From positions 124,001 to 188,000 of the forward strand of contig OZ374560.1 of NCBI GenBank assembly GCA_977862235.1: a stretch of 64,000 nt of DNA, in the 5' to 3' direction. The notes beneath the pieces were generated by a model. It was given only the letters and a program-made list of their open reading frames with translations. It searched no databases and was not told the DNA's origin. This DNA comes from Dudresnaya verticillata (lineage: Eukaryota). This document shows, in pieces, positions 275-51,456 of this stretch. The first letter of the stretch is position 1. Every line of letters starts with the position of its first letter. Both the position numbers and the translations under genes were made by a program.

Positions 275-318
275 CGTCACCGCAACCGCAAACCCTAACC
301 TCCCACAACCCGCTCGCA

Positions 319-11680: not shown

Positions 11681-11685
11681 TCTAC

Positions 11686-12361
11686 TGTGGTAAAGTGAGA
11701 TTCGGCATCCAAGACGGTGGAAATGCATATAGTGTGGTCTCTACCGTTGTGAGACGTGTGAACGTGTATCCGTGTCGGTGTTGTGCGCATTGCTGTGCGC
11801 TGGTACGCATTGCTGTACAGTAGTGTAGCGCACCAACCATACCGGAGTATTTTTAGTATTTATTCTTTATTTTTAGTGAGTTTCTGTACAGTGTGTAGAG
11901 TAGCGCGCCAGCCAATGAGAATGCTGCGCATGTCCGTGTCGGAGATTGGAACCAGCAGGGCCGATTCCACAATGATTTCAGACCACTAGGGTCTGGCCCA
12001 CACGGACCGGACCGCTCGGTGCCACCCTGACTTGTATATCAGGGCGGCACCGCAGCGGCTCCTAAGGTAAACGGCAAAGCAACCCTTGAGCCTCAATCCC
12101 AATGTAGATCTTTCCTTTAGGGTTTTCCCCGCGCCGAGTCCGTTGCGGTCTACCACCACCACCGTTACGGAGTCCGTCCCGGCACTTTTACCCCCCCTTG
12201 TCTGTTGCTTCCCAATATCCGTTTCGGTTAGTCGCTCGCTGTTGTCCCATAACGGTGCAAACTGCTCTACCACCCCGTCGAGGTAGAGTTGCTCTCTCGC
12301 CCCGTGCAGGAACGTTACGCCAGCTGTCCGTTACGGAGTTCGTGGGTTTTAACTACACCCA
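11686..12361 (+). repeat. 5' LTR of element B
   Basis: Direct repeat of 35599-36272 with scattered substitutions. Confidence 0.95.
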
Positions 12362-13214
12362 TGTGGTGCAAAACGTCTAAGACGATGGACCGCCGAGCAG
12401 TTCGGGGCTCGGTGGGTAGCTGCGCCATCAGCGGTAGGTAGTCCCGCCGTGGGCGACTTGTTGGTAGAGCAAAGGAACACGCCTTGGGCGGACTGTAGAC
12501 GCCCGAGGCGGAAGGTGTGAAGGAAGGGAAAAGGGAACAGAAAGGAACAAAAGGAAAGCACGTCAAGGACGGATAGAGACGTGGAAGCACGGGAAGTAGA
12601 CGCTTAGCCGTAGGCAGCGGTAGGGTACGCGCGTGCGGAACGGGGAAGTCTGGACCAAAGCCGGCTTGTCCGGGATTTACTCTGCGTCTCAGACGGATTA
12701 CCTAATATACTACGTGAGCGACAGCGGCGGGCGTGGTGCGCGGGAACTCAGGACGCGTGTCGCGCCGTCGAGTGCCTGACACGTCGTCGTCGCCATGCAG
12801 CCGCGTGCGCGGGAGCTCAGGAGTAGCTTACAGACGCATGCGTGTAGCGGCGCGGGGAATCCGTATTCGGATCCAGATCCCTGCCAGCATTGCTGGCGCG
12901 CGGCCATTACAGGCGCGCTCCTTACATCACTGTGGATCCGGATGCCGGATCTCGATGTCCCATCCGGATCCGATCCGGATCCGGGCCAAGCTTACAGGCG
13001 GGCGCCTTGCGCCCGGCCGATCGGGATCGTGCATCCGGATCTGGCCGTACAGTGGGCGCGTGCGCCGCGCCGCGCGGGGTAACGGCGGCCGTATGCCCGT
13101 GGGCCAATCGTCCATGACGTGTTCGCGCGCCAACGGCGGTTGACGTGCCATCGATAGACGATGGCATATAATACGCTCACAGCGAAAAAGGGGCAGCCCT
13201 CCCCTTGCACCAGA
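12362..13214 (-). repeat. 3' LTR of element A
   Basis: About 8 differences from 24915-25767 by eye. Confidence 0.95.
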
Positions 13215-13671
13215 CGACCCCCTCGCAAAACGCGAACACGTCCGCCGCAAGCTTGCGTTTCTCTGCGGGTCCCATATCGTTGTGCGTGCGTTCCTGCGTT
13301 CCGGCTGTGCCGTGCTAACTTCGCGTGCTGCGCGTTGCGTCCGGCGAGCTCTCTCTCTCGTGCGTGCTTTTTTCACCGTACACCATCGCCGTTGGCGCCT
13401 TTCGAATCCCGTCAACGATGCCACATCCAATTCGTCGCCTGGGGCGTTTCAGTTGCATCGTCGTCGACGAGTTGTGTGAAGTTCATCGCCCAAGGCGCAG
13501 GTGTTTCCCGTCTGTGACGCAGCTTCATCGTAGTCGCCTGCGGCGCGGAACAAAAGGCGTCTTTGACGTAAGCCGAAAGGATAACCGCCGGTTGCGTGGG
13601 GCAAGAGTCGTCGTTGACGTTTGGTTGACCTTAAGCGCCAGTGGCGTAAACGAAGTTGCGTCGTTGACGAT

Positions 13672-15931
13672 ATGCCGACGTTCAAGTCGCGGCGCCCTCG
13701 GCCGCGCCGGTATACTTATCTCCATACGACTTCGTCGGGAAGAACCCGCAGGATCACGGGGACATCTTCGCGCAGGCCCCCTGGTTTGACCAGGAGGCCT
13801 TGCGCAATGAGGAGCTCATTGCTCATTGCGCTACTAGCGGATTTTTGCCGGGGGGACTCCCCCTTGCCGTCGTCTGGACGATGGATTGGAAGTTGCGCTG
13901 CGCGGTGCCGCCCGAGTGGCTGTGGGTTCGCGCAGGGCAATCGCGTGCGGGCGTTCATGCCAAGTTCGTCGCAGACGTGTATCGCCGCTCCACGCGTTAT
14001 CCGTGCTCGGCGTTAACGCCGACCATCTTCGAGTTTGATGCCGGTCAATACCGGACCAATGGCGAGATCGAGTATGGGAATCGTCTAGGGACGTTATCGC
14101 TCAAACATCTGAGCGTCTCGGCAGAGCCGCGTATCAGGCAGGAGGCGTACCTCCTGGGAGTACGCTTGAAAGCGGATTTTCGTTACCAACACCGAACGGG
14201 GACGTTCTTTTGGGAACGATGCATACGCTGGGAATGTGAAACGCGCCGCCGAAAGGGCGTCTTTGTGGCCTACCAGGATATGCAGGTCGATCATATCGAA
14301 CGCAGTAAGTTGCCTCACTGCTTCGTGAAGGTGCCGCCCGGTTGGCGAGAGTTCGAAATTTGCGAAGGTTTCGCTGCCGAACTTCCTCCGTGTCTCACGT
14401 ATATCGGGTCGGAGTTAATGACGGACCCGTACTCCAAGTGGGTGGCAAACGTAGCCTACGCTTGGATGTGGGAGGTGTATGACACCTTCCGCATTTATTA
14501 TCTGCCACCTCGCATAGTCGCGTCTCTTAGTAGCCTGGACCTAGCCGAGATACTCGGCGGGTCGAGGAACAGCCAGGAGTTCTGGGATTTGCGCTCAGTA
14601 GCGGATGAAATTAACTGGAACGACCCGACCCGGCGATGGTGCCGTTAGGGAACAACCGTCGTAAGACGAACCGCCCGCGATTCGCGATGAGTCGTACTCA
14701 CTCCGCCTGTGGCGATTGGATCCATTATAATCCATGGACAAAGCGTCGTACGGCGAAGAACGTTGCGGAGCGCCATCGCAAAACGGACCGCTTCACCCCG
14801 GGTAATCACCCGCGTGGTTTGCGTAAGAGCTGCGACTTTGTCGGTGATTTTCCTCCGCATTTGAGTGCCTTGATGGCTGAGGAAGATGCTTTTAACGCCG
14901 AGGGCGAACCGGGGAACCCGTCTGGGACGGCTGTCGCTACGCCTATGGCGGTTGAGTCATCTGCCGAGGCTGCGGCTCCATCATCAGCTTTGCCGCAAGG
15001 GTCTGCTGGTGGTGTTGTGGTGTCAGCTGGCTTGCCAGCTGTGGCACCCTTGGACCTCGCGGCTCCCGTCTCGGACGTTGATGGCGATGCCGTTATGGCG
15101 ACGCCAATAGTCGAGTCGGGTCCGCCGACCGTAACGCCTCAAGGCGGAGTATCGAACGTCATAGACGGAACTGTGAAGGCGCCCTCGGTGCCGGTCTGGA
15201 CCGAAGAATAGCGCCGCACCGTGCTCGCCTTGTTGCGTGCAGCGGGAGTCGCTACTAGCGGTTTGAGTGGCTCGCCCACTGAGTGGGTAAGCCAGTCTCT
15301 GGCGGCTGCGTCGCGTCCCCAGAGTGCGTCGGTGCCGGTGCCGATGATTGACGTAGGTTCTGCGTCGAAAGACGGTGCAGACGGAAAGTCGTCATCGCCT
15401 AAGGCGACTGGTTCAGCGTCCAAAGACGTAATTGCTACTGTACCGCCAGCGGCGAGCGAGGCAGATGTCGCTACAACGTCTCCGACGGTTGAGGAGGGCA
15501 CAGTGGCTCCTGCGTTGATGACGGATATAGAACCGATGACGCCAAAGGCGGGTGAGGGCTCTACGTCGGTTCAGACGGTTGCGACAGTTGCGCCGTCGGC
15601 GGTAGGTTCTGCGCCGCCGAAGGCGAGCGATGAGTTGAACTCTACGCCAAAGGCGGTTGCGGCTGCTTCGCCGTCCAAGGGGACAGTCCCTGCAACTACG
15701 CCGAAGGCGGATGTTATCGGGGCAGCGCCGGAGGCGAATGGACGACTTGGTTCTGCGCCGTCGGCGGTTGGTAAAGCCAAAGAGGCTTCGCCGCCTAAGG
15801 CGGGTGGTGAGTCGAACTCTTCGCCAGCGGCGCATATTACGCCTTCAGCTGTGGCGGTGGCGGTGCCTTTGCGGTCCGTCCCTGTTGCTGCTGTGGGTGT
15901 GCCGTCAGTGACGGAAGACGACCTCTATTAA
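13672..15931 (+). pseudogene. Accessory antisense ORF of element A (unknown Trp/Arg/Cys-rich domain plus Ala/Pro/Ser/Thr-rich tail), disrupted
   Basis: ORF pieces 13800-14648, 14636-15211 and 15221-15931 (last two in frame across a TAG); ATG at 13672 inferred from the homolog ending at 50028. Confidence 0.75.
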
Positions 15932-17562
15932 GAGGCGTTGAGGGAGTCCGCCGAGGTCGATGGTGCGGCGGGCTCGGCAAAACCGTCTGCGACGTGACGT
16001 AGTTAGCATCGTTTAGGGCGGAAGGCCTTCGCGGGGTGCGTATTGTGGTACCTTACCGGCTCCTTTGCGGAGTCGGGAGGTAAGGCATCGTACGTCGTTG
16101 GCGAATGTGTTAAATGTTCTGCGGCGTTTAGCTGCCGTGGCTTGTGGCTTAGGCGCGGGACTTCCCCGTTGCTTAGCCCGACTAAATTGTATCGTTGGTA
16201 ACGTAGTTTTTGGTTTCGTCCCGCTGCAACCATCGCGTTGCAGCCGTCGCGTCGTAGTGTTTTGCCACCGCGTCTTCCAGGTGTGTTAGCGAACTCGTGC
16301 TGCACGTATAGTGAGAAGTGGTGTCATTTCGGCGAGCGTTCACCTACTTCTTGTCTCGTCGTGATGACTTTATCGTATTAATCGTCGAGAGACGTTACTT
16401 GGGCGTTGTACCTCCCTCCTTGGTTCGCTGCGTTAGCGTTGTGTAGCGCGCCTGGGGCGTTGTTTTCGGAACTGCGTTTCGTTGACGGCAAATATTGTCG
16501 ACGTTGTCGGGGCCGAGCCTCTTGGTTATATTTCACTTAGCAAAGCGTTTCTTTGCGTTGCATTTCATCTTGCCACGCTCGACAGAGTCGTCATGGGGGA
16601 CTCGCTCAGAGCGTTGTTGGATGCTGTCGCGTTCGGTCCGCGGCTTGCGCGTGAGCGTGGGCCATTTGCACGCCAGGGGCGTATTATTTTCTCGCTTGGT
16701 GCGTAGCTTAGCTTCTTTAGCTTAGTTGTGCCTATCGTAGTTGACGGAGGTCGACGTGTGGTGGGTGAGGTGGCTTCTGGTGGGCGCGTTGCCTTGTTCC
16801 TCGTCTCTGACGTTTTCCTCCGAGGGTGGGGAATGGTCGTCGCGCGACCGTGTCGGCCATTCCCAGCGGCGGAGCCATTGCGCGTAGCGATTTGGTTGTG
16901 CGTCGTGCACGGAACCGTGATAAAGGCGTCCTCGATGACCATTCCCCTCCCGTTGTCGGCGGGTTCGGCGGCGTGCCCCTTCTGCGGGAGGTGCGTCGAC
17001 GGCGTCGTGCGTGTGTTCGTGCCCGGCCGAGCCGTTCGCTGGCTGGGTAAGGGAAGGCTGCAGCGACTTGGCCGTGGTGCGCAAGCGTGCGGCAACGTCG
17101 GGGGACGGTCCTCGCGCGTCGCGAAGTGCGTCTGGCGTCGTGCGTGCCGGTAGCACTAGTGCGGCCACTTGGCATACCGTGTTTGGCACAGTGGCCGATT
17201 GTCGGGTAGTGCGCCTCCCCTTTGTTTGGGCATTAAACTTTCCGGCTCTAGTCGGCGTCTGGTAACGGGATTGGTGAGGCGCGTACCTCGGCGAGTGATC
17301 TGAAGCCACTGTCAGCACCCTCGCATCCGGGGCGCTGTATGAGGGCCGTTTGGTGTGGTTGTCTTTGACGCCAGATTTGCGTCCTGCTCCGTCGGTGACG
17401 TGTGTGCTTGATTGTCGCCGCGGCGGGTGTGTCCGCGTCCACGCACGTTAGAGGGGGCTTCCACGCCGTTGGCGACGTTTGCGTGCCCGTGCAGTTTCTG
17501 AACGTCATTGTATTCGCTATTAGCGTTGTTTTCCTGATTAGGGTTATCCGCGCTGGGCGTCG

Positions 17563-20500
17563 TCAATATTTGGAGGCAGACGCGTGTGATCGCGGCAAAC
17601 TGGACACGGGCTCCCAGGTGTTCGCTGAAGCGGGGTATCCAAACCACTTGACGCGGTAGAGGATCTCACCATCATCCGCGTAGGCGTGCGACTCGATGCG
17701 TTCGATAACGTATTCTTTCCCGCTCACAGCGTTCTGCTTGGACCTGTGTCCTTCCAGCGCCTTTGGCGGTTCGTATCGTTGCGTTATGGGCGTCTGTTCC
17801 GGCTCGGCGAAGCGTACTCGACGAGTTGATCGCCGAAGGCGTTGGCCTTGGCCTCGAACGCTCGATCCGCGGTCAGTGGGTTGTTGCGTCTTGAGACGAG
17901 TTCATCGCTTGCAGCGCCTTGCTTCGTGCTTGCACGGTTAACGTCTTCGTTATCGGACGCGCTTTCAGCGGATTCATTGTTCTCATTCGGCAGTGCCGTA
18001 GCGACGTGTTCCAAACGGGTGCGAACCCCTGGGGTATTGTCGTCGTTGGAGACGGATTACGAAGCGCGGTCGTCGGGACCGGCGGCGAAGGGCGAAAGCT
18101 CTGCCAACCCTCGACTGCGTGACGCTGTGATCGTACGCTCTTGCGGATCTCTCGCAGTATGCGAAGTCTCTGCGTCCCCCTCCGGGTCCGCTGGTGGTGT
18201 GCTTGGGGTAGTCGTCCCTTCGTCTTGTGACGTGGGGGCGACTGCGTCCTGCTCCTCAGGCGGGCCTGATGGTACGACGATTGAAGGGGCCGCCTGACCC
18301 GGTGGGGTCGGCGGCCAGACCACGCGGTCTCGGGACAAACGTTCCCGCTCATCACGTCCCTTGTCGACGGTTACTGTCTCGTTATCAACGTGAGCTACCC
18401 GGTATGGTCCGTCCGCCACTGGCACCAGCTTATGCTTACGCTCTGCGCGATCCGTGCTCCCGCCTCGGGCGAAGTATTCCTTACGTACGAATACTAAGTC
18501 GCCAGCGGCGATTGCTTCCTTCGATTTCCTTAAGCGGGTATCGAAGTTTCGTTTGTAACGTGCTTGAGTTTTCTCTAACGACGCTTTAGCGGTTCCCATC
18601 AGTGCGGCCAGCCAGGTTCGCCACTTGGTGTAGTATTGCCCCGCGGTGGGTACGCTTTCGAGCTACGGTTCCGCTTCGAGCGATAGTGGCCGTGGTGGCT
18701 TGGACAGCACCAGTTCAAACGGAGCGAGATGCGTAGACGAATGCAACTGCGTGTTGTATGCGAACGTCAAGGCATCCGTGAACAGGTCCCAGTCTCTCGG
18801 ATGATCCGCAACGTAGTGACGCCGCGAGGCCAGGATAGTTCGATTGAATCGTTCTACCTGGCCATTGCATTGCGGATGGTACGTCGTGGTGAAGAGATTC
18901 TCCACGCCCAAAAGACGGCAGATATCCTGAAACAGCTTAGCCACAAACTGTGGTCCGTTGTCGGACAACAGTTTCTTGGGAGGACCGTACACGAAGACCC
19001 AATGTCGTACAAACGCCTTAGCGATTTCCAATGCCGTAATACTACGCAGTGGGACCGTCCGGACCAGCTTCGAGAAGCGGTCCACAATGACGAGTAGGAA
19101 CTTGTTTCCTCGCTTCGTGCGTATGAGTTCGCCCAGGATGTCGATCGATACGAATTCGAGAGTCTCGGTTGCCGGGAACAACTTCAATTGCTTGGTGTTC
19201 TTTCGCAGCAATACGCGATTCTTAGCGCAGGTTACGCAGTTGCGGACGGTCGCATAGCAGTCCACTGGCATCGATGGCCAATAGTATTCGCGTCGAAGCG
19301 TATGATACAACTTACGCCCCCTGGGTGCCCTGCAACTTGGCGTGGTGCCGGAGGTGGAGTAAGCGAGCGCATAACGTGGAGGGTACGACCACTTGCGGAC
19401 GAACTTCCACCGTTCGGACCAACAGACCCTGTTCATCCGTTGCGAACGGTAGCATGATCCCGTCATCCAGACGTTTCCTGACATCGTTACAGTATTTGTC
19501 ATCGCCTTGGGCGTGTACCAACTCTTCATGCGTCACTTGACGAAGGAGTACCTCATCCGCCGGTGGTGTGTTGTTGATCAACACTTGGTCGAACTCTTCG
19601 AACTCTCGTTCGGCGAAGTCGACCTCGCCTTCGGCGTCTGACAGATCGTCTTGTGACGTTTGATGGCCGCCTTCGACGTAGCTTCCGTGATAGCACGGTA
19701 TATCATCTTCAATGGGCTCGACGGTTTCTCCCTTCGTCTGTAGACGCGAAAGGGCATCTGCCTGAGTATTCAGGTACCCCTTTTGTACTTCACGACAAAG
19801 TCGAACTCGGAAAGGCGAAGGCGCCACCGCATTAACCGTCCAGAGGGGTCGCTGATTTCAATCAGCCACCTCAATGACGAATGGTCCGTATGGACTGTGA
19901 ACGACTCCATCTGGAGGTAAGGTCGCAGCGTCATGACGGACCATACTACTGCGAGGCACTCCTTTTCGGAGACCGAGTAGTTACGCTCTGGAGCGGTGAG
20001 CGAGCGGGACCAGAAGCCGAGTGGCTTGCGCTCCCCGTCGGGCTGCGTTTGAAAGAGAGCGCAGCCGACCTGGTACTCGCTTGCGTCACAGTCGACGGAA
20101 TAGGGGAGACCCTGTTGTGGTAGCGCCAGTATAGGCGGATGAGTCACGGCCTCGACGAGCGTACTGAACGCTTTGGCTTGGGTCTCATCAAACGGTTGTA
20201 ACCGGAAGTCCTGTTCCTTCCTCAGAAACTTGTTGAGGGGGGCAGCGACATACGCGTATCGCGAGACGAACCGTCGGTAGATGTTAGAAAGACCGAGGAA
20301 GCTCCGTAGCTCCTTCTGATCCCGTGGATGCTTGGCTTCGCGTAGCGCGGCAGTGACATTTCGGTCAACTTCTAACCGTCCTGGACGTATGACGTGTCCT
20401 AAGTAGTTGACGGTCGGGGTGAAGAAGTCACACTTGGTCAACTTCAAGGTCACCCCGGCGCGGTGCAATGTCGAAAGGATCTCGTCAACATGACGGAAGT

Positions 20501-22236
20501 GACTGTCGATGCCGCTGCAGAAGATTATTACGTCATCGAGGTAGACGAGGCACGAACGCCACTTGTAACCAGCGAGCAGTATGTCCAACGTTCGTTGAAA
20601 CGTAGCGGGTGCGTTCGTGAGACCGAATGGCATACGCTTATAGCGGAACAGTCCGGCGTGGCACTTGAACGCAGTCTTATTGCGGTCTCGCGGATTGATT
20701 GGCACCTGCCAGTACCCACTGTTACAGTCTAGGGTGGTGAAGACTTTTGCTTCCCCTAGACTGTCAATGCATTCGTCGATACGCGGCAGCGGGTACGTTT
20801 CCCGTATGGTTACTGCGTTTAAACGACGGTAGTCTACGCAAAAGCGGAGGGTCCCGTCCTTCTTGGGGGCGAAGACCACTGGTGACGCCCACGGAGATTG
20901 TGCGGGTTCGACAACCCCTTGACGCAGCATGCGGTCCTCTTCCGCTTGAGCGAGTTGTCTTTGCTTCGGCCCCGCTCGGTAGGGCGGGGACGATATCGGT
21001 CTAGAGCCGGGAAGCAAGTCGATGTAGTGCTCCGTGGTTGAGATTTCTCCCAACGAACCGTCCCACATAGACAAATACTTGCGTAACATCTCCTTAAGCC
21101 GACCTTGATGCTCGGCGGGGAGATGTCCCAGGTCCAGATCGTCTACTGACGGAGGTTTGGCAGTGGTTGCCTCGATAGACTTCGTGAAAGTATCCGGCTG
21201 TGCCGTAGTGTTATCGTTCGTTTGAAAACGGAAATCTTGGGTTGCCTTCTCTTCCTCGGCCTGTTCCTCTGTGAGGCCCAAAAAATCGGCTAGACTTACG
21301 TGACTGGGGAACACTGCTGTCGGATTTGGTAACGCCGTCGCGACGACTTGGCCCTTGGCCAGCGCCTGCGGGCGGGGAGAGAAGTTGGCAACCAGAATAC
21401 GAAACGCTTTTAGCGGTTCCACTTGAGCAATCCCGTTTGTAACGGCCAACCCTTGTTTGTCGTACAGCGTTCCGAACGGTTTAATTGTGATGATGCCGGC
21501 GCGCTCGGTGTTCACCGATACCCATTGCTGCGCCTTAGGCGGGATGATCGCGCGTTCGGCGACTCGGATCTTGGGCGACGTCCTCCCTTCGGCCTTGCCG
21601 TATTCCTGTTCCGTTGGTAACGGAGGATACGACGGAGGTCGGCGCAGCGGGCGGCGCGTTATAGGGACACGAGTCCCGTCATCCAATTCAACCTCGCGAC
21701 TTCGCGGATATATTGCTTCGACAAAGCGGTCGCAAAAGTCGCAGCCGTGTATAACCGGCGCAGCGAGTCGTTCGCAAACGATTAGTTCCAACTTGACGAC
21801 TATCCGTCCTAGACGAACGACCAGGTCGATGGTGCCTCTTGTCTAGATCGCCTTATTGTTGGCGTCGGCTATGACGGGGAGTCTCTTTGCCACGATGCGC
21901 GATCGCGCTTCCAGCGGAATGTCGTCAATGCGAATGAAATTCGGACCAGCCCCCGTGTCGAGGACAGTGCGTTTCGTGCCAAGGTACTAACGGTTGCGCC
22001 CAAATCGGCGTACACCTTATAGTTCCTCTTGGCCATTACGAACAACTGCCCTCGCGCCTGGGGGGCTGATACCGTCGCCATGGGCGTTTTAATGACGTCT
22101 TTGACGACTCTATCCGCCCGTTGGCATCATCAGTAACTAACTTCGGGCCCTCCTTCCGTGTCAGCACCCGAGGCCTAGGCCTCTCTTCACGGTGCGACAC
22201 CCCAGTGTCAGGATTTGGTGCCCGAGTTAGTTTTTC
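17563..22236 (-). pseudogene. pol: pol of element A: protease, RT, RNase H, integrase, chromodomain; several frameshifts
   Basis: VLDTGAGPNF (~21940-21968); FCVDYRRLN, LDCNSGYWQ, YLDD, DASEYQVG, EKECLAVVW (19770-21791); SDNGPQF, YHPQCNGQVERFN, GPY; EYVIERIESH...YRVKWFGYPASANTWEP (~17590-17720). Confidence 0.93.
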
Positions 22237-24787: not shown

Positions 24788-24894
24788 GATACAATCGTAG
24801 AGTTGCTTGAACGTCGTGGACGATTAGTTACAAACGTCTAAAGACGAAGAGTCAGACGTCGCACGACGGAGAAACTCGTTGAAACGTAGCACAA

Positions 24895-24912
24895 TTCTAG
24901 GTCGGGACACCA
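24895..24912 (-). promoter_or_regulatory. Primer-binding site of A (TGGTGTCCCGACCTAGAA)
   Basis: TGG-initiated 18-mer 2 nt inside the 5' LTR; one mismatch to the PBS at 25779 and 48777. Confidence 0.85.
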
Positions 24913-24914
24913 GA

Positions 24915-25767
24915 TGTGGTGCAAAACGTCTAAGACGATGGACCGCCGAGCAGTTCGGGGCTTGGTGGGTAGCTGCGCCCTCGGCGGTAGGTAGTCCCGC
25001 CGTGGGCAACTTGTTGGTAGAGCAAAGGAACACGCCTTGGGCGGACTGTAGACGCCCGAGGCGGAAGGTGTGAAGGAAGGGAAAAGGGAACAGAAAGGAA
25101 CAAAAGGAAAGCACGTCAAGGACGGATAGAGACGTGGAAGCACGGGAAGTAGACGCTTAGCCGTAGGCAGCGGTAGGGTACGCGCGTGCGGAACGGGGAA
25201 GTCTGGACCAAAGCCGGCTTGTCCGGGATTTACTCTGCGTCTCAGACGGATTACCTAATATACTACGTGAGCGACAGCGGCGGGCGTGGTGCGCGGGAAC
25301 TCAGGACGCGTGTCGCGCCGTCGAGTGCCTGACACGTCGTCGTCGCCATGCAGCCGCGTGCGCGGGAGCTCAGGAGTAGCTTACAGACGCATGCGTGTAG
25401 CGGCGCGGGGAATCCGTATTCGGATCCAGATCCCTGCCAGCATTGCTGGCGCGCGGCCATTACAGGCGCGCTCCTTACATCACTGTGGATCCGGATGCCG
25501 GATCTCGATGTCCCATCCGGATCCGATCCGGATCCGGGCCAAGCTTACAGGCGGGCGCCTTGCGCCCGGCCGATCGGGATCGTGCATCCGGATCTGGCCG
25601 TACAGTGGGCGCGTGCGCCGCGCCGCGCGGGGTAACGGCGGCCGTATGCCCGTGGGCCAATCGTCCATGACGTGTTCGCGCGCCAACGGCGGTTGATGTG
25701 CCATCGGTAGACGATGGCATATAATACGCTCACAGCGAAAAAGGTGCAGCCCTCCCCTTGCACCACA
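24915..25767 (-). repeat. 5' LTR of element A
   Basis: TGTGGTGCAA...TTGCACCACA termini; adjacent PBS. Confidence 0.95.
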
Positions 25768-25778
25768 ACCCAATCGTT

Positions 25779-25796
25779 TGGTCTCCCGACCTAGAA
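25779..25796 (+). promoter_or_regulatory. Primer-binding site of B (TGGTCTCCCGACCTAGAA)
   Basis: Lies 6 nt after the B 5' LTR once A is removed. Confidence 0.85.
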
Positions 25797-25921
25797 CACC
25801 GTCACGGTTGAAAGAAGCAGCCGTCGAAATCCTCTACGGTAGGAATTCGGTTGTAACGATAACCCGCTGCGGAATATTGCATAGACAAGCAATAACAACC
25901 GTTTTGTTCCGTTAATATATC

Positions 25922-28900
25922 ATGCAAAAAGAAGAACACACGGACCCTCCCGTTACGGAACCTACAGCGGGTGACACTGCCCCCGCCTCACGCATTCTGC
26001 GCAGTGAAGGAGGTGAAATTCGTTCCGGAGTGGAGAACCGGAAGACATCTTTAAGGGTGCTTCTGGTAAAGCTCCCCGTTGCCGTGTCGGATCAGACGCC
26101 TCTAAGAAGGCAGCTCCGCAACCCAAGCCGGAATCCCATCGGGTCCACCGGGTCCAGTCCGAGGTCCTTCCTAGGGTGTTAGAGCATCTCCGATTGGAAG
26201 TACAACCTGGAATGGTGAAATAGGTGGAGATATCCCTCTCGGAAACTGTTCTGTCTTTGGTTAAGTCGTATCTGGAACAGCAACTTCCTCGGATAGTGCA
26301 AGCTTTGCAGGAAAAGTGGCCTCTGAGCTCGAGAGCGAGATTTCTCCCGGCATGGCAAGGCCTCCCGCTACGGAATCTTTTACTGAGCAACCACCGTTAC
26401 GGACGGAATGACTTCCCGGTCGAGGGAAGAACACAGCAGCCGCAACAACCCCCCGTTATGGGATTACAGCCGGGTACAGTACCCTCTGGGTAACTGCCAC
26501 CGGGTCCCGTAACGGATTCTCAACATCAATACGCCCCTAAGGGACCAACACACACTCAGTCACTGTCCCGGTCTTCTCTGTAGTATCTCTAAAGCACCAC
26601 CGCGTACGGCGGCCAAACGAGATCCCAAGAAAACCCAAAAGACCTGTCGGATTTCGTAGAAACTGGCCAAGCGTAGAACGGACCTGCGCGCCGGTAGCAA
26701 GCGTGGTACAGGGGGAGCGCGCAGACGAAGTCGTGACCAAAATCTGCGATGAGGACAGAAAATGGCCAAGTCGGGGGTTCAGTTGCTAACTTTACTCCCA
26801 ACCTCTGGCGGGACGGCTTCGTGCCTCTGTTGGCTGAGCCGAGGTATGTGACCGTCTAAGTAGACCCAAAATCGGCCATCTGAGCTATTCTAAGGCTATT
26901 CTACAGTTAGTGGCCGAGGTTACTCACCATGGCCCAAAACATCTTCTCGAATCCTGGCTTCGGGCCAATATTAGAGCCCTACCGAATTAAATCGAGTGCT
27001 TGTCAGTTGATCAGTGGTTGTAGCAGTTAGATTTCCCTTGATTTTTTCGTGCTTGATTCCTTGATATGGTGTCTCGGCCAAATTCTTTTTCCGTAATCCG
27101 ATCCCGTTTTGATCCCGATTGCCCTATCCAGATTACCTCAGTCGCCCAGATATGATCACTCTTCCTTGCGCTGGCCGCGTGGTTGACACGTGCACGCGTG
27201 TGACCCACGTGTCATGCGTGTGGCTCCCTGCCGGTGTCCACCGCCGTCCGCGTGGCCGTACAGTAGTGACTTCGGCCAAGTGTCTCTTGTGAGTTGGCCA
27301 ATTCGGGCGCGTGGCCCGGTCGATAGGCGTGTTTTCGGAGGCTCCTTGCTGTTGCACCACATTCTCCTGGACACGTAGATGTGCCTACGACAGGGCGCTA
27401 TCAGCAAGAGCGCTATACCGTTCCGGTTCGATCAGGTGGAGGCAGCGACCATCTCAGCGATGCGTCCAGCTCACCCCATCCGAGTCAGAGGACCGGTCGA
27501 GGTCGGCATAATCGAGATGCCCGACACTCCTGCTCTGACCCGCCCCGTCGGTCGCACATGGGCGCCCACACCCAGCGACGACGCAATCAAACTGGTACGG
27601 AATCTAATGAGAGCAGCTCAGAGGATAGCCAACACCGCCGCCGAAAGAGGAGAGACAGAAGATCGCGGAAACGCGGAAAAAGGCATGACCCCTCTTCCTC
27701 TACGGATTCAGACTCAGAGAGTTCTTCCGTAACAGATAGAGAGAACAGGCACCGGGCCAGAAAACACGGTGCCAAATCCGGAAAAGTGAGGGTAATCCGG
27801 CCGCTACATGACAAGTTTGTCAAGGCGCTGGACTACTGCATCTACCGATTGGATAAGAGGAGTAAGACTTATGGCTCTAAGTTCTCACAGAACATGAGCC
27901 GTATACGGAAGAAACTCGACGTCCAGATGTCTTCCCATACACTCGATGGGACGGCCCCTATTACCGTCTTGGGATTTCTCGCCAAGTTCCGTGACGGTTG
28001 TAATATCAATGGCATCGCCGAAGGGGTTGCCGTCTGGTGCTTCCAGCTTTTCCGAAAAGTACAAGCCGAAGCCCTTCTACAGGCTAGGCTTGTTGGAGGT
28101 ACTATGGCGGTTGATGTGGTGCAGGCTGAGATGCTCCGCTCATACTCCGAGGTGGTGAATTTCCTACTGAGGACTTACGCTACGGATGAAGTAGTCGCTG
28201 AAGCCTTTACTGGTGTCAGTAATTTCAGGCAAACATCCGCCATGACGGAAGAGCAGTTCTCTAACCAACTCTGGGCAAAGGCTCTCCGCTGTGGTACTGT
28301 ATTTTCCGATCGGGCATTGAAGTCACTGTTCGTCGAGGGGCTCCTACCTGGGACGCGTCAACAGATGCGAAATTATCTTGCAAAGCATTCCCAGCTGGAT
28401 TACCAGGCCATCACTTGTTACGCGACTGGTCTGGGGCAGTCCCATCGGGCAGCTGGACGCCAAACCGTTCCGGCTCACGTCTTTGATGGGTGCACTAAAG
28501 CGCGCCCGTCTAAGGTGTTATCGCTGGATTCCGTACCGGATGTACACTACGAGACGCAGGGACATCTTTCCGCTACGGGTGATCAAGTGCTAGCAGTCGA
28601 GGGAGGCCACGTTGCCGCTACGGTAACAAGTACGGGGGTTACCTTTTCAACCCCGTACTCTTCACCCCCACAAAGCGTTCACCCTACGCCGCCCAGGATG
28701 CCACGCGCGCAAGGTCCCCCCTATGGTGTATCTCGCCCGGCTCCTGGCCCTCAACAGCAGCCGAGTCACCGTTACGGAAATAATGAAATAATGCCCACGA
28801 TGGGTGAGGACAGCAGCAACCAGCACCTCCGCTACGGGATGAGTCGGATTCTCGGGTCCGACGCCTTTACGGAAGTGGCAATTGCCGCATCTGACTTTCC

Positions 28901-29194
28901 GCAGAACATGTCGTTTGCCCGTGGATAAACGACGCCGATCGGGTTAAGCTCATGGAAGAGCGTGAGCGCAACTTCCAGAAGCACTACCCTGTAGCCCGCA
29001 GGTTTGTCGTGGGAACCAGTTCGAATCCGCAAGGGAATCGGGGCAAGCCGCAAACGCGCCCTCCGCAACGGAATGCCCCGATATTATCGGTGGAGGACCG
29101 TGACGGAGTGGAATACGCCGAATTGCGCGAGCCCATGGAGGCGGACCCGACTGGTGCACCCTTGATTTCGGAAAACGCAATGGGGGACGCGTAA
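25922..29194 (+). pseudogene. gag: gag of element B, disrupted by stops and a solo LTR
   Basis: ORF 27381-28928 is homologous to the A gag (LLRTYAT, LRCGTVF, LFVEGL). Confidence 0.75.
26579..27361. mobile_element. Solo LTR inserted in B gag
   Basis: TGTAG...CCACA termini with perfect TSD TTCTC (26574-26578, 27362-27366). Confidence 0.88.
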
Positions 29195-32100
29195 GGGCGC
29201 CGCCATCCCCGCCCCACGGCGTTACACCTCTTGTGAGTGTGGACTCGCCCGGGGATCGGCGAGATACCGATACGGAACTCACATTGGCTTTTCAGACCAA
29301 TGATTCTATATGTGTTATGCAACAACAAAATTATAAAATTCAAATTACCGTGGGACGGACAGATAGCGTGATGCTTCCTATAGTCTCCGTATTGGACTCT
29401 GGCGCGAGGCCAAATCTCATTAGTGCCAGGCGACCTCCCGTGAATGGCTACCCCTCATTCGCCCCGCGACCAGTCCTCCGCTACGGGATGCATCTAATCG
29501 CGCTATCCGCCCCCTTGGTCAGATCCAACTTTTCGTCCGCACAGGAGAGAGCTCCGTGCTCGAGTCCACTCCCTCGTGGTCGCGAACCTAGCTGCTCCAT
29601 GTATTTTGGGAACTAACTTCATCGACCGCTATGTAAAGGCCATCCTTCCCCGTTACGGAAAGTTGTTTTCACCATTACCCCCGGTATCCCTTGTTGGTCA
29701 AGCCAAACTTCCGAAGACGGGTACCGCTGCAACCCTACAGCCCTCATCTTTATCCACCGCTACGGTTTCTTAGAACATTCGTTTAGCAAGATCTACCCTT
29801 ATTCCCCCTATGACTCAAACCCCCTAACAGTTAATACCCCACGGGTGGGTTATGCATTCTACAAAGTCATCCTAAGCCGGCTTTTAAGCACCTTAAGTTA
29901 ATGGCTAATGGTTTTATGGATGTTGTACCTAACAAGCCGTTTCGGATCTGGGTCTCTAATTTTTCTAACAAGCCGGTACGGTTGCCCAAATCTACTGTCG
30001 TGGGCCCGGCTGCTGCTGCCCCTTCTGCTATTTTTACCGTTGACGGTATACCTCCATTTAAGGAAGGGGAGGAATTATTCAATCATTTAATTCTAACCTT
30101 ACCTCCGAAAAGGCCAGCAGCATCTCCCCTCTCGACAATGAAGTAAGCAACCCCGTAACGGAAACTACAAACACTACCGACTGGAATAATCAAGTCCAGA
30201 TCGATAGAGAAGAAGCATCGCTCCGTAAACGGATTTTAACCCTACTCGAGGAATACAAGTCGATGTGGAGTGGCGATCTTGGCAACATTACAGCTGCCAA
30301 GCACCGCATCGAGTTAACTTCCAGAGCTAAGCCAGTATATCAAGCCCCATACTGTGACGGACATAAGCAGCGAGATCTCGAAAAGACAGAGATCGATCGC
30401 ATGCTTTCCGCTAAGGTAATTGAGCCAGCCTCATCGGAGTGGGCCAGTCCCGTGGTTTTCGTTCCAAAAAAGGACTGCACCATGCGGTTCTGTGTTGACT
30501 ATAGAAGGCTCAATTCCGTAACGGTTAGGGACTCATACCCCTTGCCCAGGATGGATGAGTGCATAGATTCCCTTGGGGAAGTTACTGTATTTACAACTCT
30601 GGATTGCAATAGCGGATATTGGCAAGTCGAGATTCCGGAAGAGGAAAGGTTCAAAACTACCTTTACTAGCCATTTTAGCTTATACCGTTTTCGGAGAATT
30701 TGGATTGAATAATGCGCCGGCAACCTTCCAACGGGCAGTGGAAATAATCCTTTCTACGGTTAAACGTTAATTCGCCCTCGTCTACCTAGACGATGTAGTT
30801 GTCTACTCAAAAATCGTTACGGAACATTCCCGCCACCTGAAGGAGGTCCTTACGCTTTTACGATCCGCTGGGTAACGTTGCAGTTGTCAAAGTTTGACTT
30901 CTTCAACGCGTCTGTACAATACCTGGGGCATGTTATACGTCCCGGAAAACTAGAAGTGGATAATCGGAATATCTAATCCGTTAAGGTCGCGAAGCCGCCG
31001 ACTAACCAAACGGAGTTACAATCCTTCTTGGGAATGTGCAACGTGTATCGTCGCTTTCTACCCAACTTCGCTCGGATTTCAGCGCCGCTGAATAAGAAAA
31101 CCGGCAAGGGCTCACCCTTTGAGTTCGGTATATTATCCGATACGGAATACGAAGCCTTCGAGGAACTGAAGAGACGCCTTATCTCTCCACCTATGTTGGC
31201 TCTACCCCGTCACGGATATAAATATACGTTGGACACTGACGCATGTGACCGTCCAGTCGGCTGTGTCCTTCTGCAGGAACAACCGAATAGCGATCACCTC
31301 CCTATTGGATACTGGAGCCGAAGCCTCACCAATGCGGAGAAAAGTTATACTACAACCGAAAAGGAATGCTTAGCCGTGGTCTGGAGCATGTTGACACTCC
31401 GACCATACCTTTACGGCGACACGTTTATTCTCCGAACGGATCACGATGCCCTGCGGTGGATCCTGAACCTCGCAGACTCATCTGGCCGCCTAGCTAGGTG
31501 GAGGCTCCGCCTATCGGAATTTGAATTTGAGGTGCAATACCGTCCAGGAATTAAGCACCAACTCTCCGATGGGATGTCGCGACTCCGAACGGATGGAGGT
31601 GACGATAGACCTTTGGATGAAGAAATACCTTGCTTTGTCGCCGAAAATACCGTCGACGGATTGCATATGAGCCTGCAGTTTATTTGACCGATTGGGCCAC
31701 ATCACAAGAAACCGCTACGGAAAATAACCTAATATGCGCCGTGGAGCCGGCCAGTGGGAGTGCATCCGCCTCCCCTGACAAGCCCGACGCAATACCGTCA
31801 CGGTTTACTGTAATCCAAGAATCCGACGATAAGGATGAGACAATAACCAGGGAGGAGTTCCTCGAAGCGCAAGCCCGAGACCCTTTCTGTCGTCTCAAAG
31901 CCGATACGGTAGGCTCCCCTGGATCACAATTTGACTATGACCGTAATGGATTCTTGGTACGCAAGTCTCAATTGGATGGTGCTCTGCAGAAGGAGGTGCC
32001 AAGCGAACTCCGTGGACGGGTATTGTATTTATCCCACTACACACTGATGTCGGGTCACCCAGGCGGAATTAAGATGTATTATACACTCCGACAGCATTAT

Positions 32101-34340
32101 TATTGGCCTCATATGGCCAACGATGTATTTGAATCCGTTCGGACATGTCGCTCCTGCGTGATGACGAAGGGGAGCCGCTTTCGGAATCAAAGGTTTATGA
32201 AACCTTTCCCCGCTAGCGGACCTTTGGGGTTCGTCGCTATCGACATCCTCGGGCCACTTCCGAAGACAAAACGGGGTTGCAGCTACGTTTTGGTAATTAC
32301 TGATCGGTTCTCTAAGCTGACGCGCTGCATTCCGTTACGGACAACAACAGCCATTGTGCTGGCTAACGCCTTCTTGGACGTTTGGGTGTACGCCTATGGC
32401 GCACCCCAATTTGTCCTAACCGATAACGGACCGCAGTTTACTGCCAAGTTCTTTGATGCAGTGTGTTCCTTACTCGGAGACAGGCATCTACTCACCGCTG
32501 CCTACCATCCGCAGACAAATGGGCAAGCTGAGCGATTTAATAAGACAATCGCCCAGCGTTTGCGCCATTACGTTGAGGATCATCACTCCGATTGGGATTT
32601 GTACCTGCAACCGTTGACGTATGCGTACAACATGCAGGTACACCGTAATACGGAAACAACGCCATTTGATTTGGTGCTGACACGCTGTGGCGCACGGGGG
32701 GCCGAGCTTTTATTTCCTCGCCATGGGCGTCAAGGGGCTCGTCGACCGACGGATGGTCGCCTGAAACGCCTCATTCGCCGTTGGCGCGAACACGTCATCG
32801 ACGATTGGCCTACGGACGCGCGGGCGCCACAACCCCGCGCCGCACACGCCGATGCCCTGTACGGCGCAACGCTGTAGAGCGGATCTGGATGATGCCTCGG
32901 GATCAACGAGGTGTAAGCGGGTTGACTGTCAATTTGGCCCGGATCCCGATTGAATCCGGATCCGACAGTCGGATCGGACATCGGGATCCACTGTAAGGGA
33001 AACGCGCCCGTAATACGGTGCCAATCGCGATCCGAATCCGGATCGCCTACAGTACCGCACAGGCGCCTCTCTGTAAGACGCATGCGCCGGCGTACAGCGG
33101 CTGTATGGTCCGGGACCTGTCAGACGCAACTCCATGCGACACGCGTCCCGGGTTCCCGCGCACTACGTCATGCAGCCGCCGCGCCGCGGCCCCATAGCAT
33201 TACTTAGGTACCTCGTCTAGGACGTAGCAGTAAAGCCCCGGTCAGCCGGTTTGAGTCTAGACTTCCCTTCCGCGACAGTGCGCGCCCTACCGCTGCCCTG
33301 AAACACAAGCGTCTACCTATCCGTGTTTCCACGTTCATAACCGGTGCTAACGTGTTTTCCTTTGGGTTTCTTAGCCCCTTTTCTCTCTCGCCTTGGGTGT
33401 TTACAGTCCGCCCTAGGCGTGTTCAACCTGCTCTACCAAGTTCGCCACCAGCGGCTACCCAGCGGGCTCTCGAACGGCCCCGAGGTGTTTTCCGTCTCTG
33501 GACGACGTCTGCACGACACACGTCACCCATCGGACATTGTTGTACGAGGGGCTCCTGTCGAGAATCAAGAAACCGTTATGGAAGGGCGTGTGACCCCGGT
33601 GCTACAGAAGCGGAGCACCATGCGCCGTTTACGGTATGCGCTCCAGACAGCGCGCACGAAGCAGACAGTGGCTCAGCAAAAATCCAAGGCACTGTTTGAC
33701 CGTAAGGTGCGCTTTAGGCCCATAATCCGTAGCGGAGATCAAGTGTATGTCGACCGGCTGTCCCATAACTTGCGGCCTGCCGAACGCCGTGAACGGGACC
33801 GATTGGAAGGTAAACGGGATGACGTGGGCAAGGTGGCTCAGGAAATGAAGAAACTCCTTCCGAGAGCCACGGGGCCTTATGAAGTGGAATCCGCAACGGA
33901 ACATATGGTTACAATCCGCAAGGAAGGGGTATTAATCAAAGTAAGTTATCAATCGCATCACGAAGGTTCCGATCGGAGTTGCGGTTCAGCCGGCACCCTT
34001 AACAGTGCCGCCTGTCACGCCATCAACCGTCTACGGAGAAGTAGTGCCACATCCAGAAGGTACTACAGTAGCGCCTACACCGTCAGCCGGCATTACACCC
34101 TCCGTAGCGGAACCCCTGCAAGCCGATACGGAATATGTGATCGACAAGATTGTCGGTCACCGCGACGAACCTACTGGGATGACGTACAAAGTCCGCTGGT
34201 ATGGCTACCCGCCGGACCAGGATACATATGAGCCTGCTGAGGAGTTACCGCAAAACGTCATTCATTGCTATCGCAAACAAAAACGCAAGAGCTCCGCTAA
34301 GGGAAAACCACTGCGACGCGCAGCCAAGGTGCGCCGTTAA
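29170..34340 (+). pseudogene. pol: pol of element B: protease, RT, RNase H, integrase, chromodomain; many stops and frameshifts
   Basis: VLDSGARPNL; FCVDYRRLN; VYLDD near 30780; DACDRPVG; TDNGPQF, YHPQTNGQAERFN; GPY; EYVIDKIVGH...YKVRWYGYPPDQDTYEP. Confidence 0.92.
32686..33518 (+). mobile_element. Solo LTR (related to A LTRs) inserted in B integrase
   Basis: TGTGG...CGACA termini; TSD CACGC/CACGT; removing it restores ...LVLTRHPSDI; shares the GATC block and U5-like sequence with A LTRs. Confidence 0.88.
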
Positions 34341-35598
34341 CCGTAACGGAAGACAAGCTACTGTCGCTTGCGGTAATCGCAACTCCCCGCGATGTGCGCA
34401 ACTCCCCGCGATGTGGCGACCCGGTTATGGGAACTGCGTCTTGTCGACGCCTGCTACCGTTACGGGATGTCGTTGTTGCTCAAACTGGGGCATTCCACTC
34501 CGTCACGGATTTTGCCAGCGTGGGTCGCGTACCCTGCTGATGACGCGACCCATTTCCCGAAACGGTACTCTCGTTTTTCCGCAAGATCTCAGCCGGCGTA
34601 CTCTGCTGAGGTTCCACCACTTACGCGGCACTCTTCCGTCACGAAAATCGCGGGAGGGGCACGCCTTTTTCTTGCCATGGGTGGCCGCCCCAGCACGTTT
34701 GGACCAGGAACGGCCTCTTCCGCGACGGTACAGGAAAATTCCTCGGTCTCATTCTTCTCAGAGTCCCGGGTATATGTTAATATTGATGTTAATCTTAATA
34801 TTTTATATAGTTTTCAATATATTATTATATTGAAAATAATATATTAACACCGTCGCGGGTTGTGTTCATCTCAAGAGGGAGGGCTTCGTAGCGTGTCTAA
34901 TAAGGGCAGGGGTGAAGGTATTCGCCCGTAACCGCTACGGATTCCTGATACACGCGGCCTGCGCCGGTTTGTGGCGTACCTAGTCCTCCAGCTTCTCGCC
35001 ACCCAAGTCGGAACACCGTCCGTCAGGGGATAGCTGGTGTGAAGTACCGTCGTCCGATCGGAGTACGAATTGTCCATTGTGGATATGGGAGCGTAATCGA
35101 CTGCGCGTTTGGGCAGACAGTTGGGGAAACTTATTCCGCTACGGTGAGAACAACACTCTCCAAAGGTGTTTGCTCCTTTAGGAGTGGTAGGACCCCCATG
35201 TTGGATTTTTGCAAATGAGGCTGTCTGCGAGGTGCCTGGATTGCAATCCCGTTACGGTGAAAGTGGTACAAGACCTAGTGTCTGCTCCCCTGACACACGG
35301 GAGGAACCCGTTGCGGATGGGTTATGAGCTAGAAGACGACGACCAGCCTGGGCCGTCATCTCTTGCGGATGAGCGCGCCACTCGCGTCAAGCGCGTTTCG
35401 GTTATTCTCCGCGACGGTAGTCCTGGTATCAGAGGTGCGTGGAGTTTCCCAACGCATCGAAGCAAACCGTGACGGCAGTAGAGCAGTTGACGAGAGACCT
35501 GGAAAAGCTGCTCGAACCCGTTGATGGTGCGTTGGACCCTAGTCGGAACTCCGTTAACTTGGGCGCACGAGGACGTGTCGCCATTTAAGGAGGGGGTC

Positions 35599-36272
35599 TG
35601 TGGTGAAGTGAGATTCGGCATCCAAGACGGTGGAAATGCATATAGTGTGGTCTCTACCGTTGTGAGACGTGTGAACGTGTATCCGTGTCGGTTTTGTGCG
35701 CATTGCTCTGCGCTGGTACGCATTGCTGTACAGCAGTGTAGCACACCAACCATACCGGAGTATTTGTAGTATTTATTCTTTATTTTTAGAGAGTTTCTGT
35801 ACAGTGTGTAGAGTAGCGCGCCAGCCAATGAGAATGTTGCGCATGTCCGTGTCGGAGATTGGGACCAGCAGGGCCGATTCCACCATGGGTCCAGACCACT
35901 AGGGTCTGGCCCACACGGACCGGACCGCTCGGTGCCACCCTGACTTGTATATCAGGGCGGCACCGCAGCGGCTCCTAAAGTAAACAGCCAAGCAACCCTT
36001 GAGTCTCAATCCCAATGTAGCTCTTTCCTTTGCGGTTTTCCCCGCGCCGAGCCCGTTGCGGTCTACCACCACCACCGTTACGGAGTCCGTCCCGGCACTT
36101 GTACCCCCCTTGTCTGTTGCTTCCAAATATCCGTTTCGGTTAGCCGTTCGCTGTTCTCCCGTCTCGGTGCGAACTGCTCTACCACCCCGTGGAGGTATTG
36201 TCGCTCTCGTCCCGTGTAGGAAAGTTAGGCCAGCTGTCCGTTACGGAGTTCGTGGGTTTTCACTACACCACA
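35599..36272 (+). repeat. 3' LTR of element B
   Basis: Preceded by a polypurine tract, followed by TSD TCTAC. Confidence 0.95.
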
Positions 36273-47993: not shown

Positions 47994-48003
47994 TATATCA
48001 CAC

Positions 48004-48773: not shown

Positions 48774-48776
48774 CAC

Positions 48777-48794
48777 TGGTCTCCCGACCTAGAA
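48777..48794 (+). promoter_or_regulatory. Primer-binding site of element H (TGGTCTCCCGACCTAGAA)
   Basis: Identical to the PBS of B; followed by an ATG ORF at 48847. Confidence 0.85.
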
Positions 48795-48846
48795 CGTGGT
48801 TGCGAAGTTTCGCATTTATTCGTAATTCGCTTCTATCCGAGACACG

Positions 48847-51407: not shown

Positions 51408-51456
51408 GCAAAAATTGAACGCTATTCGTGGCATCGTGTCCGCCGCGCCACCGAAG

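What the first reader, a model, noticed from the sequence alone, without database searches (positions are those of the whole stretch)
11686..36272. Element B is stamped throughout with a private quasi-palindromic motif, CCGNNACGG (~40 copies)
Seen: by eye I count 40 exact CCGNNACGG matches on the + strand in the ~9.5 kb that belong to B itself, mostly CCGTTACGG, CCGCTACGG, CCGTAACGG and CCGATACGG. Examples: 12162, 12328, 25950, 26365, 26394, 26507, 27989, 28570, 28615, 28769, 28829, 29267, 29478, 29650, 29757, 30153, 30516, 31137, 31207, 31712, 31795, 31901, 32332, 34123, 34341, 34457, 34932, 35136, 35249, 36075, 36238. Seven fixed bases give roughly 0.6 expected at uniform composition. They occur in LTRs, gag, RT, RNase H, integrase and the 3' region, in different reading frames (PVTE, HRYG, NSVTV), so this is not a protein repeat. 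I noticed no exact match in the nested element A or the two nested solo LTRs. Knowledge: CCGTTA/TAACGG is a Myb-type core, and Arabidopsis VANDAL transposons accumulate family-specific motifs bound by their VANC anti-silencing proteins. Inference: a family-specific barcode for a DNA-binding protein (anti-silencing, transcriptional or packaging), kept even through codon choice. I know of no description of this for a gypsy element.
Basis: partly seen in the sequence, partly recalled or inferred. Interest (0 to 1): 0.88.

Follow-up and report, generated by a model that had tools for sequence, protein, structure and literature searches.

The report
Retrotransposon families' private palindrome barcodes
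A broken retrotransposon, likely from a red seaweed, carries about 60 copies of one short palindrome written even into its genes, the family nested inside it carries a different one, and many relatives carry short inverted repeats of their own size, which likely serve as a family-specific self-tag read by a protein that has not been identified.

Summary
Confirmed and wider than reported. Element B, a chromodomain Ty3/gypsy element sister to Chondrus crispus elements, holds 41 plus-strand CCGNNACGG. The real unit is the dyad CCG-N3-CGG: 64 sites, 56 vs 4.3 expected with one LTR left out. It survives synonymous-codon shuffling (16 vs 1.4), and in pol it fills 13 of 16 sites the protein permits, against 0 of 8 in element A. 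Lone half-sites and Myb cores are not enriched. Of 68 near relatives, 41 show a 1.5-fold or greater excess of short inverted repeats with family-specific geometry (5 of 102 distant ones); none of 170 has B's word. Best reading: a selected self-tag, likely read on DNA by a dimeric, family-specific protein; RNA packaging hairpins are the main rival. Reader and purpose are untested, and B has no detectable extra gene. Nine literature searches found no description. This scan noted a similar palindrome earlier in a fungal retrotransposon (unchecked).

The parts
11686..12361 (+). B 5' LTR, 8 CCG-N3-CGG sites (11.8 per kb); target-site duplication TCTAC at 11681-11685 and 36273-36277
   Evidence: 93.8% identical to 3' LTR
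12362..25767 (-). Nested element A (Ty3/gypsy with chromodomain-like end, LTRs 12362-13214 and 24915-25767, 99.2% identical, TSD ACCCA); carries 130 CG-NN-N3-NN-CG inverted repeats internally and 11 per LTR
13387..13669 (.). Dense run of A-type palindromes at about 22-28 bp spacing just before A's antisense ORF
13668..14648 (+). A's antisense extra ORF, conserved domain (326 aa); 285 homologue clusters, confident model, no fold or Pfam match; no counterpart detected in B
25773..26578 (+). B primer-binding site (about 25779-25796), leader and decayed 5' gag; 7 sites
26579..27361 (.). Solo LTR 1 inserted in B (TSD TTCTC); no B motif, no A-type palindrome
27362..29274 (+). B gag and gag-pol junction (broken by stops and frameshifts); 10 sites plus one at 29267 across the boundary
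29275..32685 (+). B pol: protease, RT, RNase H, integrase core, broken by frameshifts; 13 sites in all three frames
32686..33518 (-). Solo LTR 2 inserted in B's integrase (66% like A's LTR, inverted); no B motif, 5 A-type palindromes
33519..34340 (+). B integrase C-terminus and chromodomain (PF00385, E 4.8e-11); 4 sites
34341..35598 (+). B 3' region, 12 sites (9.5 per kb), no recognisable gene; polypurine tract at about 35587-35596
35599..36272 (+). B 3' LTR, 9 sites (13.4 per kb)
46900..51500 (.). Decayed relative of A (antisense-ORF homologue at 49206-50019) with 30 A-type palindromes and no strict B motif

Best explanation
B carries a fixed-spacer palindrome, WW-CCG(T)N(A)CGG-WW, throughout its length, likely kept by selection because a family-specific dimeric protein likely binds it on the element's own DNA, which would let the family tell its copies from other families and from the host. 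Shown: the enrichment, its independence from protein sequence and codon usage, its dyad symmetry, its absence from A and 170 other loci, and that A and many relatives have different tags. Inferred: selection rather than mutation; a protein reader; DNA rather than RNA as the substrate; coating of the whole element by many weak sites, densest at the LTRs.
For: Only CCG-N3-CGG is strongly enriched (56 vs 3.4; N4 13 vs 4.5; the other 42 spacer/orientation combinations 8 or fewer), and free half-sites are not (ACGG 40 vs 40.7). 54 of 56 sites keep at least one of T4/A6, with no pairing excess inside (22 vs 26.9) or in the first flank pair (14 vs 17.8). Flank and spacer preferences match their reverse complement (r 0.79) rather than their mirror (r 0.17). 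Synonymous shuffle 16 vs 1.39, 0 of 2000; 13 of 16 permitted sites filled in B and 0 of 8 in A; reciprocally A's word fills 18 of 31 in A and 1 of 14 in B. Density 12-13 per kb in LTRs vs 3.8 in pol. In A, only CG-anchored stems are strongly enriched (130 vs 10.6; GC-anchored 2 vs 6.8), and gaps of 11-19 nt are rare (2 vs 11.1) while 20-30 nt are common (30 vs 12.1), like a footprint. In relatives, internal G-T pairs are not favoured over the A-C strand control (loop-4 group, 5-bp stems: 1.18 vs 1.37) and favoured loops occur in both orientations (TTCA/TGAA 9:10 in L098, TTGCT/AGCAA 5:5 in L094). The six sister proteins keep motif-compatible residues at 5 of 16 B sites, e.g. A[ED]TV 6 of 6 vs 5% of 114 others.
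Against: A's inner bases covary as Watson-Crick pairs (83 of 98 vs 29.0; 60 of 74 vs 25.6), which a plain homodimer on duplex DNA does not explain. B's spacer is strand-biased (centre T 30 vs A 11, p 0.004; NTA 23 vs TAN 7), and stop-codon avoidance can account for only the 5 frame-0 sites. G..A loops outnumber T..C loops 146 to 104 over nine tetraloop loci (my sum; loci not independent), hinting at the sense strand. No candidate reader in B: the antisense-ORF profile has no hit there, and 4 of the 12 loci that carry that ORF lack the repeat excess. Spacing exclusion is not significant in B or L096. No DNA of a second B-family copy was obtained.
Confidence: 0.45

Rival explanations
1. The repeats are small RNA stem-loops that act as multiple dispersed packaging or routing signals read by each family's Gag, giving it preference for its own RNA among many co-resident families.
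For: A's stems covary. Both A and B favour a 3-nt spacer with a minor 4-nt class and B lacks 0-1 nt spacers. Sense-strand bias in B's spacer, A-rich loops in A's gag-pol (p 0.022) and G..A loop excess. Gag and Pol are the only proteins all these elements share. Dispersed signals with a shared motif and defined spacing are known in RNA viruses (PMC6281560, passages).
Against: No G-U preference. Loops appear in both orientations. B's 3-bp stem has a predicted mean pairing probability of only 0.32 as RNA, equal on both strands, and shows no covariation. In yeast Ty3, nt 429-4979 are dispensable in cis (PMC4974528, passages).
Confidence: 0.27
2. Mutational drive: the family's reverse transcriptase folds back at short quasi-palindromes and copies one arm from the other, so perfect short inverted repeats accumulate without any reader.
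For: Predicts strict Watson-Crick covariation, no G-U, strand symmetry and family-specific geometry, as seen in A and relatives. Would make stems look conserved (L027/L028: 53 shared vs 61 private; control L001/L003: 9 vs 36).
Against: Cannot give one fixed arm sequence in B. In A only CG-anchored stems are strongly enriched although GC, GG and CC stems are as stable (stability from general knowledge). Spacing exclusion in A. Complementary double changes are few (28 vs 39 non-complementary over 12 pairs).
Confidence: 0.1
3. The element has accumulated sites for a host transcription factor (Myb, or a dimer reading everted CGG triplets) to boost its own expression.
For: Highest density in the LTRs; dyad with fixed spacer; everted CCG-N4-CGG sites are known for fungal Zn2Cys6 factors (recalled).
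Against: Myb cores: 17 of 56 sites, no excess outside the dyad. Saturation of pol codons and a different tag in each family are not expected for ordinary enhancers.
Confidence: 0.09
4. The repeats are centromere-type short dyad symmetries that help these chromodomain elements sit in or seed centromeric chromatin.
For: Short dyad symmetries are enriched at many centromeres (PMC5889037, passages); B has a chromodomain.
Against: That paper describes bulk dyad density, not family-specific words. B has little general stem excess (1.2-fold). Chromosomal position of the window is unknown.
Confidence: 0.06
5. Chance, base composition, codon usage, peptide repeats or tandem duplication.
For: CpG is not depleted in these elements (observed/expected about 1.0-1.4).
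Against: (shuffles); three reading frames; no tandem array contains a B site.
Confidence: 0.01

Closest known systems
VANDAL/VANC sequence-specific anti-silencing in Arabidopsis (PMC5735166; passages read)
   Same: Short family-specific motif at high density in one transposon family, different motifs in related families.
   Different: VANC motifs are non-palindromic, mainly non-coding, arrayed in one orientation and amplified as tandem repeats, with a dedicated VANC gene. B's are dyads, dispersed singly, fill coding sites, and no extra gene is detected in B. Mutator DNA transposon vs LTR retrotransposon.
Multiple dispersed packaging signals of ssRNA viruses and HBV (PMC6281560; passages read)
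   Same: Many short stem-loop-like sites with a shared recognition feature spread through a coding genome; spacing matters.
   Different: There the shared motif is in the loop of RNA hairpins; here arms and geometry are fixed, loops are loose, G-U is not favoured and both strands look alike.
DNA uptake sequences of Neisseriaceae and Pasteurellaceae, with their dialects (recalled, no call)
   Same: A short self-tag written into coding DNA in all frames, shaping codons and residues, with lineage-specific variants.
   Different: Bacterial, non-palindromic word read by an uptake pilin; no covarying form.
Centromeric short dyad symmetries (PMC5889037; passages read)
   Same: Excess of inverted repeats with arms under 10 bp over shuffles.
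   Different: No family-specific sequence or fixed geometry reported in the passages read; satellite DNA rather than codon-level maintenance.
Chondrus crispus Ty3/gypsy Pol proteins CDF40922, CDF38306, CDF38169, CDF39905
   Same: B's nearest named relatives (RNase H up to 78% identical); motif-compatible peptides 2.2-fold over shuffle in the six-protein sister group vs 0.95 in others.

Membership tests
Ty3/gypsy LTR retrotransposon with chromodomain | LTR pair with TG...CA ends and target-site duplication | tested here: met
   93.8% LTR pair, TSD TCTAC
Ty3/gypsy LTR retrotransposon with chromodomain | pol order PR-RT-RH-IN plus C-terminal chromodomain | tested here: met
VANDAL/VANC-type anti-silencing system | Short motif enriched in one family and rare in related families | tested here: met
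VANDAL/VANC-type anti-silencing system | Motifs mainly non-coding and amplified as tandem repeats | tested here: not met
   24 coding sites placed in frame; no tandem array holds a B site
VANDAL/VANC-type anti-silencing system | Element-encoded extra protein that could read the motif | tested here: inconclusive
   No Pfam or homologue hit above cut-off in B's 3' region, no antisense-ORF hit in B; B is decayed. A has an orphan antisense ORF of unknown function.
VANDAL/VANC-type anti-silencing system | Binding of the motif and loss of methylation at targets | not testable with these tools
   needs EMSA, ChIP and methylome data
Dispersed RNA packaging signals | Repeated stem-loops supported by covariation | tested here: inconclusive
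   Met for A, not seen for B; predicted pairing 0.32-0.39 as RNA
Dispersed RNA packaging signals | Sense-strand specificity (G-U pairs, oriented loop motif) | tested here: inconclusive
   No G-U preference and loops in both orientations, but mild sense bias
Dispersed RNA packaging signals | Specific binding by the capsid or Gag protein | not testable with these tools
   needs CLIP or in vitro binding
Myb binding site (YAACKG core, recalled) | Core present in most sites and enriched by itself | tested here: not met
   17 of 56 sites; free cores 18 vs 17.5
Centromeric dyad symmetry | Location in CENH3 chromatin | not testable with these tools
   no genome held

The most novel reading that the evidence does not exclude
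A whole clade of algal LTR retrotransposons uses a self-recognition code made of mini-palindromes, in which each family is defined by stem length, loop size and a few fixed bases (B: CCG-N3-CGG; A: CG-NN-N3-NN-CG; others C-NNN-N4-NNN-G or 5 bp + 3), written through the genes by codon choice and read by a co-evolving element protein that senses paired shape in DNA.
Probability: 0.35. Interest if true: 0.93.

Novelty: new variant of a known kind. Interest (0 to 1): 0.82.

Why it matters
How a retrotransposon tells its own genome from host transcripts and from dozens of competing families is poorly defined even for yeast Ty1 and Ty3 (PMC4974528, passages: Gag binding sites not precisely mapped). 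Here two nested, related families carry mutually exclusive tags at one site per 90-150 bases, strong enough to fill most permitted codon positions and apparently to shape residues. That gives a ready-made reciprocal test (protein of A or B against tag of A or B). It also offers a sequence-only way to sort families, and a constraint on codon evolution that standard models would misread.

Tried and rejected
No genome is held, so no genome-wide background or second B copy. Sequencing-run search: none was listed, so no reads were laid. Three locus scans gave 170 loci but no B-family member. A's antisense ORF as universal reader: rejected because it has no hit in B and occurs in 4 loci without the repeat excess. 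Its model found no Foldseek match at E 0.001 or better, best VIA Z 2.4, one PDB sequence hit at E 0.33, no Pfam family beyond one weak hit among 78 members, and no usable Atlas hit for the Gracilariopsis homologue; these blanks do not show a new fold. B's 3' region: no homologue among longer proteins (proteins of similar length were not searched), no Pfam hit above cut-off. A Reb1_MybAD hit in B gag (E 0.008, below cut-off) was treated as chance. Extended stems around B or A sites: none. Compensatory changes between relatives: too few to decide. Regular spacing in B: only the 3' block is more even than random (p 0.01; middle block p 0.33). Literature searches listed no paper describing such a motif in a gypsy or red-algal element (two returned nothing); the library lacks most subscription papers, and no supplements were read.
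Full report
Anatomy. B spans 11686-36272 with LTRs 93.8% identical and a TCTAC target-site duplication. It has gag, PR-RT-RH-IN and a chromodomain, all broken by stops and frameshifts. Three insertions interrupt it: element A (12362-25767, minus strand, LTRs 99.2% identical), a solo LTR at 26579-27361 and one at 32686-33518. B's own DNA is 9560 bases (earlier scripts used boundaries about 50 bases wider, with the same site counts). In a quick RNase H tree of 85 rows, B groups (SH-aLRT 95) with six proteins, four of them named Chondrus crispus, so the host is likely a red alga. No genome is held.

All 31 listed coordinates match; 41 of the window's 42 plus-strand CCGNNACGG lie in B's own DNA. 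On both strands the window has 91 matches vs 13.6 in shuffles. The real unit is the dyad CCG-N3-CGG: 56 vs 4.3 with the 5' LTR left out, 64 with it. Other spacers and orientations are near background except N4 (13 vs 4.5); free ACGG (40 vs 40.7) and free Myb-type cores (18 vs 17.5) are not enriched. Density is 12-13 per kb in LTRs, 9.5 in the 3' region and 3.8 in pol. No tandem array contains a site.

It is kept by codon choice. In 4116 nt of B pol, 16 sites are seen vs 1.39 after synonymous shuffling (0 of 2000 reach it). Where the protein permits CCGNNACGG, 13 of 16 positions carry it in B and 0 of 8 in A. The six sister proteins show motif-compatible peptides at 2.2 times their shuffle (others 0.95) and keep compatible residues at 5 of 16 B sites examined, such as PRYG (6 of 6 vs 28% of 109 others) and A[ED]TV (6 of 6 vs 5% of 114); at the other 11 they differ or do not align. 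These proteins are kin, so this is a hint that the tag is old, not independent proof.

A has its own tag. A holds 130 perfect CG-NN-N3-NN-CG inverted repeats vs 10.6 expected, plus 46 vs 10 with a 4-nt spacer; stems with other outer pairs show at most a 2.7-fold excess. The inner positions covary: 83 of 98 complementary vs 29.0 under independence, and 60 of 74 vs 25.6; loops and flanks do not pair. A's word fills 18 of 31 permitted pol positions in A and 1 of 14 in B. Gaps of 11-19 nt are rare and 20-30 nt common (2 vs 11.1; 30 vs 12.1), also in gag-pol alone (11 vs 5.0, p 0.012). A decayed relative at 46900-51500 and solo LTR 2 carry the A-type tag.

The trait is clade-wide. Three scans gave 170 loci. 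None has B's word (highest ratio 2.7 on 2 sites; highest strict density 1.2 per kb vs 6.4 in B). Counting perfect 4-bp stems with 3-6 nt spacers in the first 12 kb of each locus, 41 of 68 near relatives reach 1.5-fold and 21 reach 2-fold, against 5 and 0 of 102 distant ones. I set the grouping from identity, coverage and the tree; 13 near loci and most distant ones were not in the tree, loci include flanking DNA, and many near loci are sister families, so the 68 are not independent. Geometry is family-specific: 5 bp + 3 in L014, L037, L047; 4-5 bp + 4 in L025, L027-L029; C-NNN-N4-NNN-G in L096, L098; 4 + 5 in L094. The excess exceeded all 60 synonymous shuffles in 11 of 12 enriched loci tested and in 0 of 4 control loci. 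One near clade (L001-L007, L009, L012 and kin) has no excess. Stems are shared between diverged relatives more than in controls, with few compensatory changes, which looks like site turnover under conservation.

DNA or RNA. For DNA: B's preferences are dyad-symmetric (r 0.79 vs 0.17), 54 of 56 sites keep at least one full half-site, nothing covaries in B, G-T pairs are not favoured over A-C in relatives, and favoured loops occur in both orientations. For a sense-strand hairpin: A's covariation, B's spacer bias (T 30 vs A 11), and G..A over T..C loops 146 to 104. Predicted pairing is 0.32 as RNA and 0.45 as DNA for B, the same on both strands. The question stays open; I put DNA ahead.

Reader. 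A encodes an antisense ORF with 285 homologue clusters, one from Gracilariopsis chorda, and a confident model (pLDDT 92). Its profile hits 12 loci, four without the repeat excess, and not B, so it is not a universal reader. B's 3' region yields no recognisable gene. A reader shared by the clade would have to be Gag, Pol or a host protein. This is inference.

Mechanism and rivals. A purely mutational fold-back process fits A's covariation but not B's single arm sequence, A's CG-only anchor or A's spacing. A host Myb site fails its own test. I therefore favour a selected self-tag read by a family-specific dimer on DNA (0.45), then dispersed RNA packaging hairpins (0.27), mutational drive (0.10), a host transcription factor (0.09) and centromeric dyads (0.06).

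Known systems. VANC motifs are non-coding, oriented and tandem-amplified (PMC5735166, passages). Dispersed packaging signals are RNA stem-loops with a loop motif (PMC6281560, passages). Yeast Ty cis signals lie near the ends (PMC4974528, passages). Centromeric dyads are bulk features (PMC5889037, passages). DNA uptake sequences are a recalled analogy. Nine searches (listings and abstract starts seen) showed no description in gypsy or red-algal elements.

Verdict. Real, highly significant, family-specific and part of a broader pattern. It works like known self-tag systems but is not a member of any tested. Interest 0.82.

Noticed in passing
window 13668-14648 (+), continuing to about 15931: Antisense extra ORF of element A: large unnamed protein family (285 clusters), confidently folded, no structural or Pfam match; homologues lie antisense to pol in 11 of 12 loci that have them.
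   Followed up: partly
window 30054-30069 and 35581-35596: B has a near copy of its 3' polypurine tract and upstream bases inside pol just before RT, possibly a central polypurine tract (seen).
   Followed up: no
window 34775-34850 and 34984-35469: Strongly AT-rich island in B's 3' region followed by a Cys/Trp-containing frame with two stops; no homologue found among longer proteins.
   Followed up: partly
window 10-4188: About 1.8-kb inverted repeat (88% identical arms) ending in a 12-bp tandem array (3789-3930); not identified.
   Followed up: no
window 57615-63089: 286-bp direct repeats (96%) 5.2 kb apart, possibly another LTR-type element; two internal ORFs scanned had no Pfam hit and no palindrome excess was seen.
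   Followed up: no
L091-L102: Contigs filed in bacterial MAGs encode full eukaryotic-type gypsy Pol with chromodomain, likely host-alga contamination; several carry strong family-specific repeats (L094, L096-L098).
   Followed up: partly
L001-L007, L009, L012, L024, L065: A well-supported near clade without any short-repeat excess, some members with the antisense ORF: a natural negative control or a loss.
   Followed up: partly
window 24891-24912 and 25779-25796: A and B have almost identical primer-binding sites, so they likely share a tRNA primer while differing in tag.
   Followed up: no
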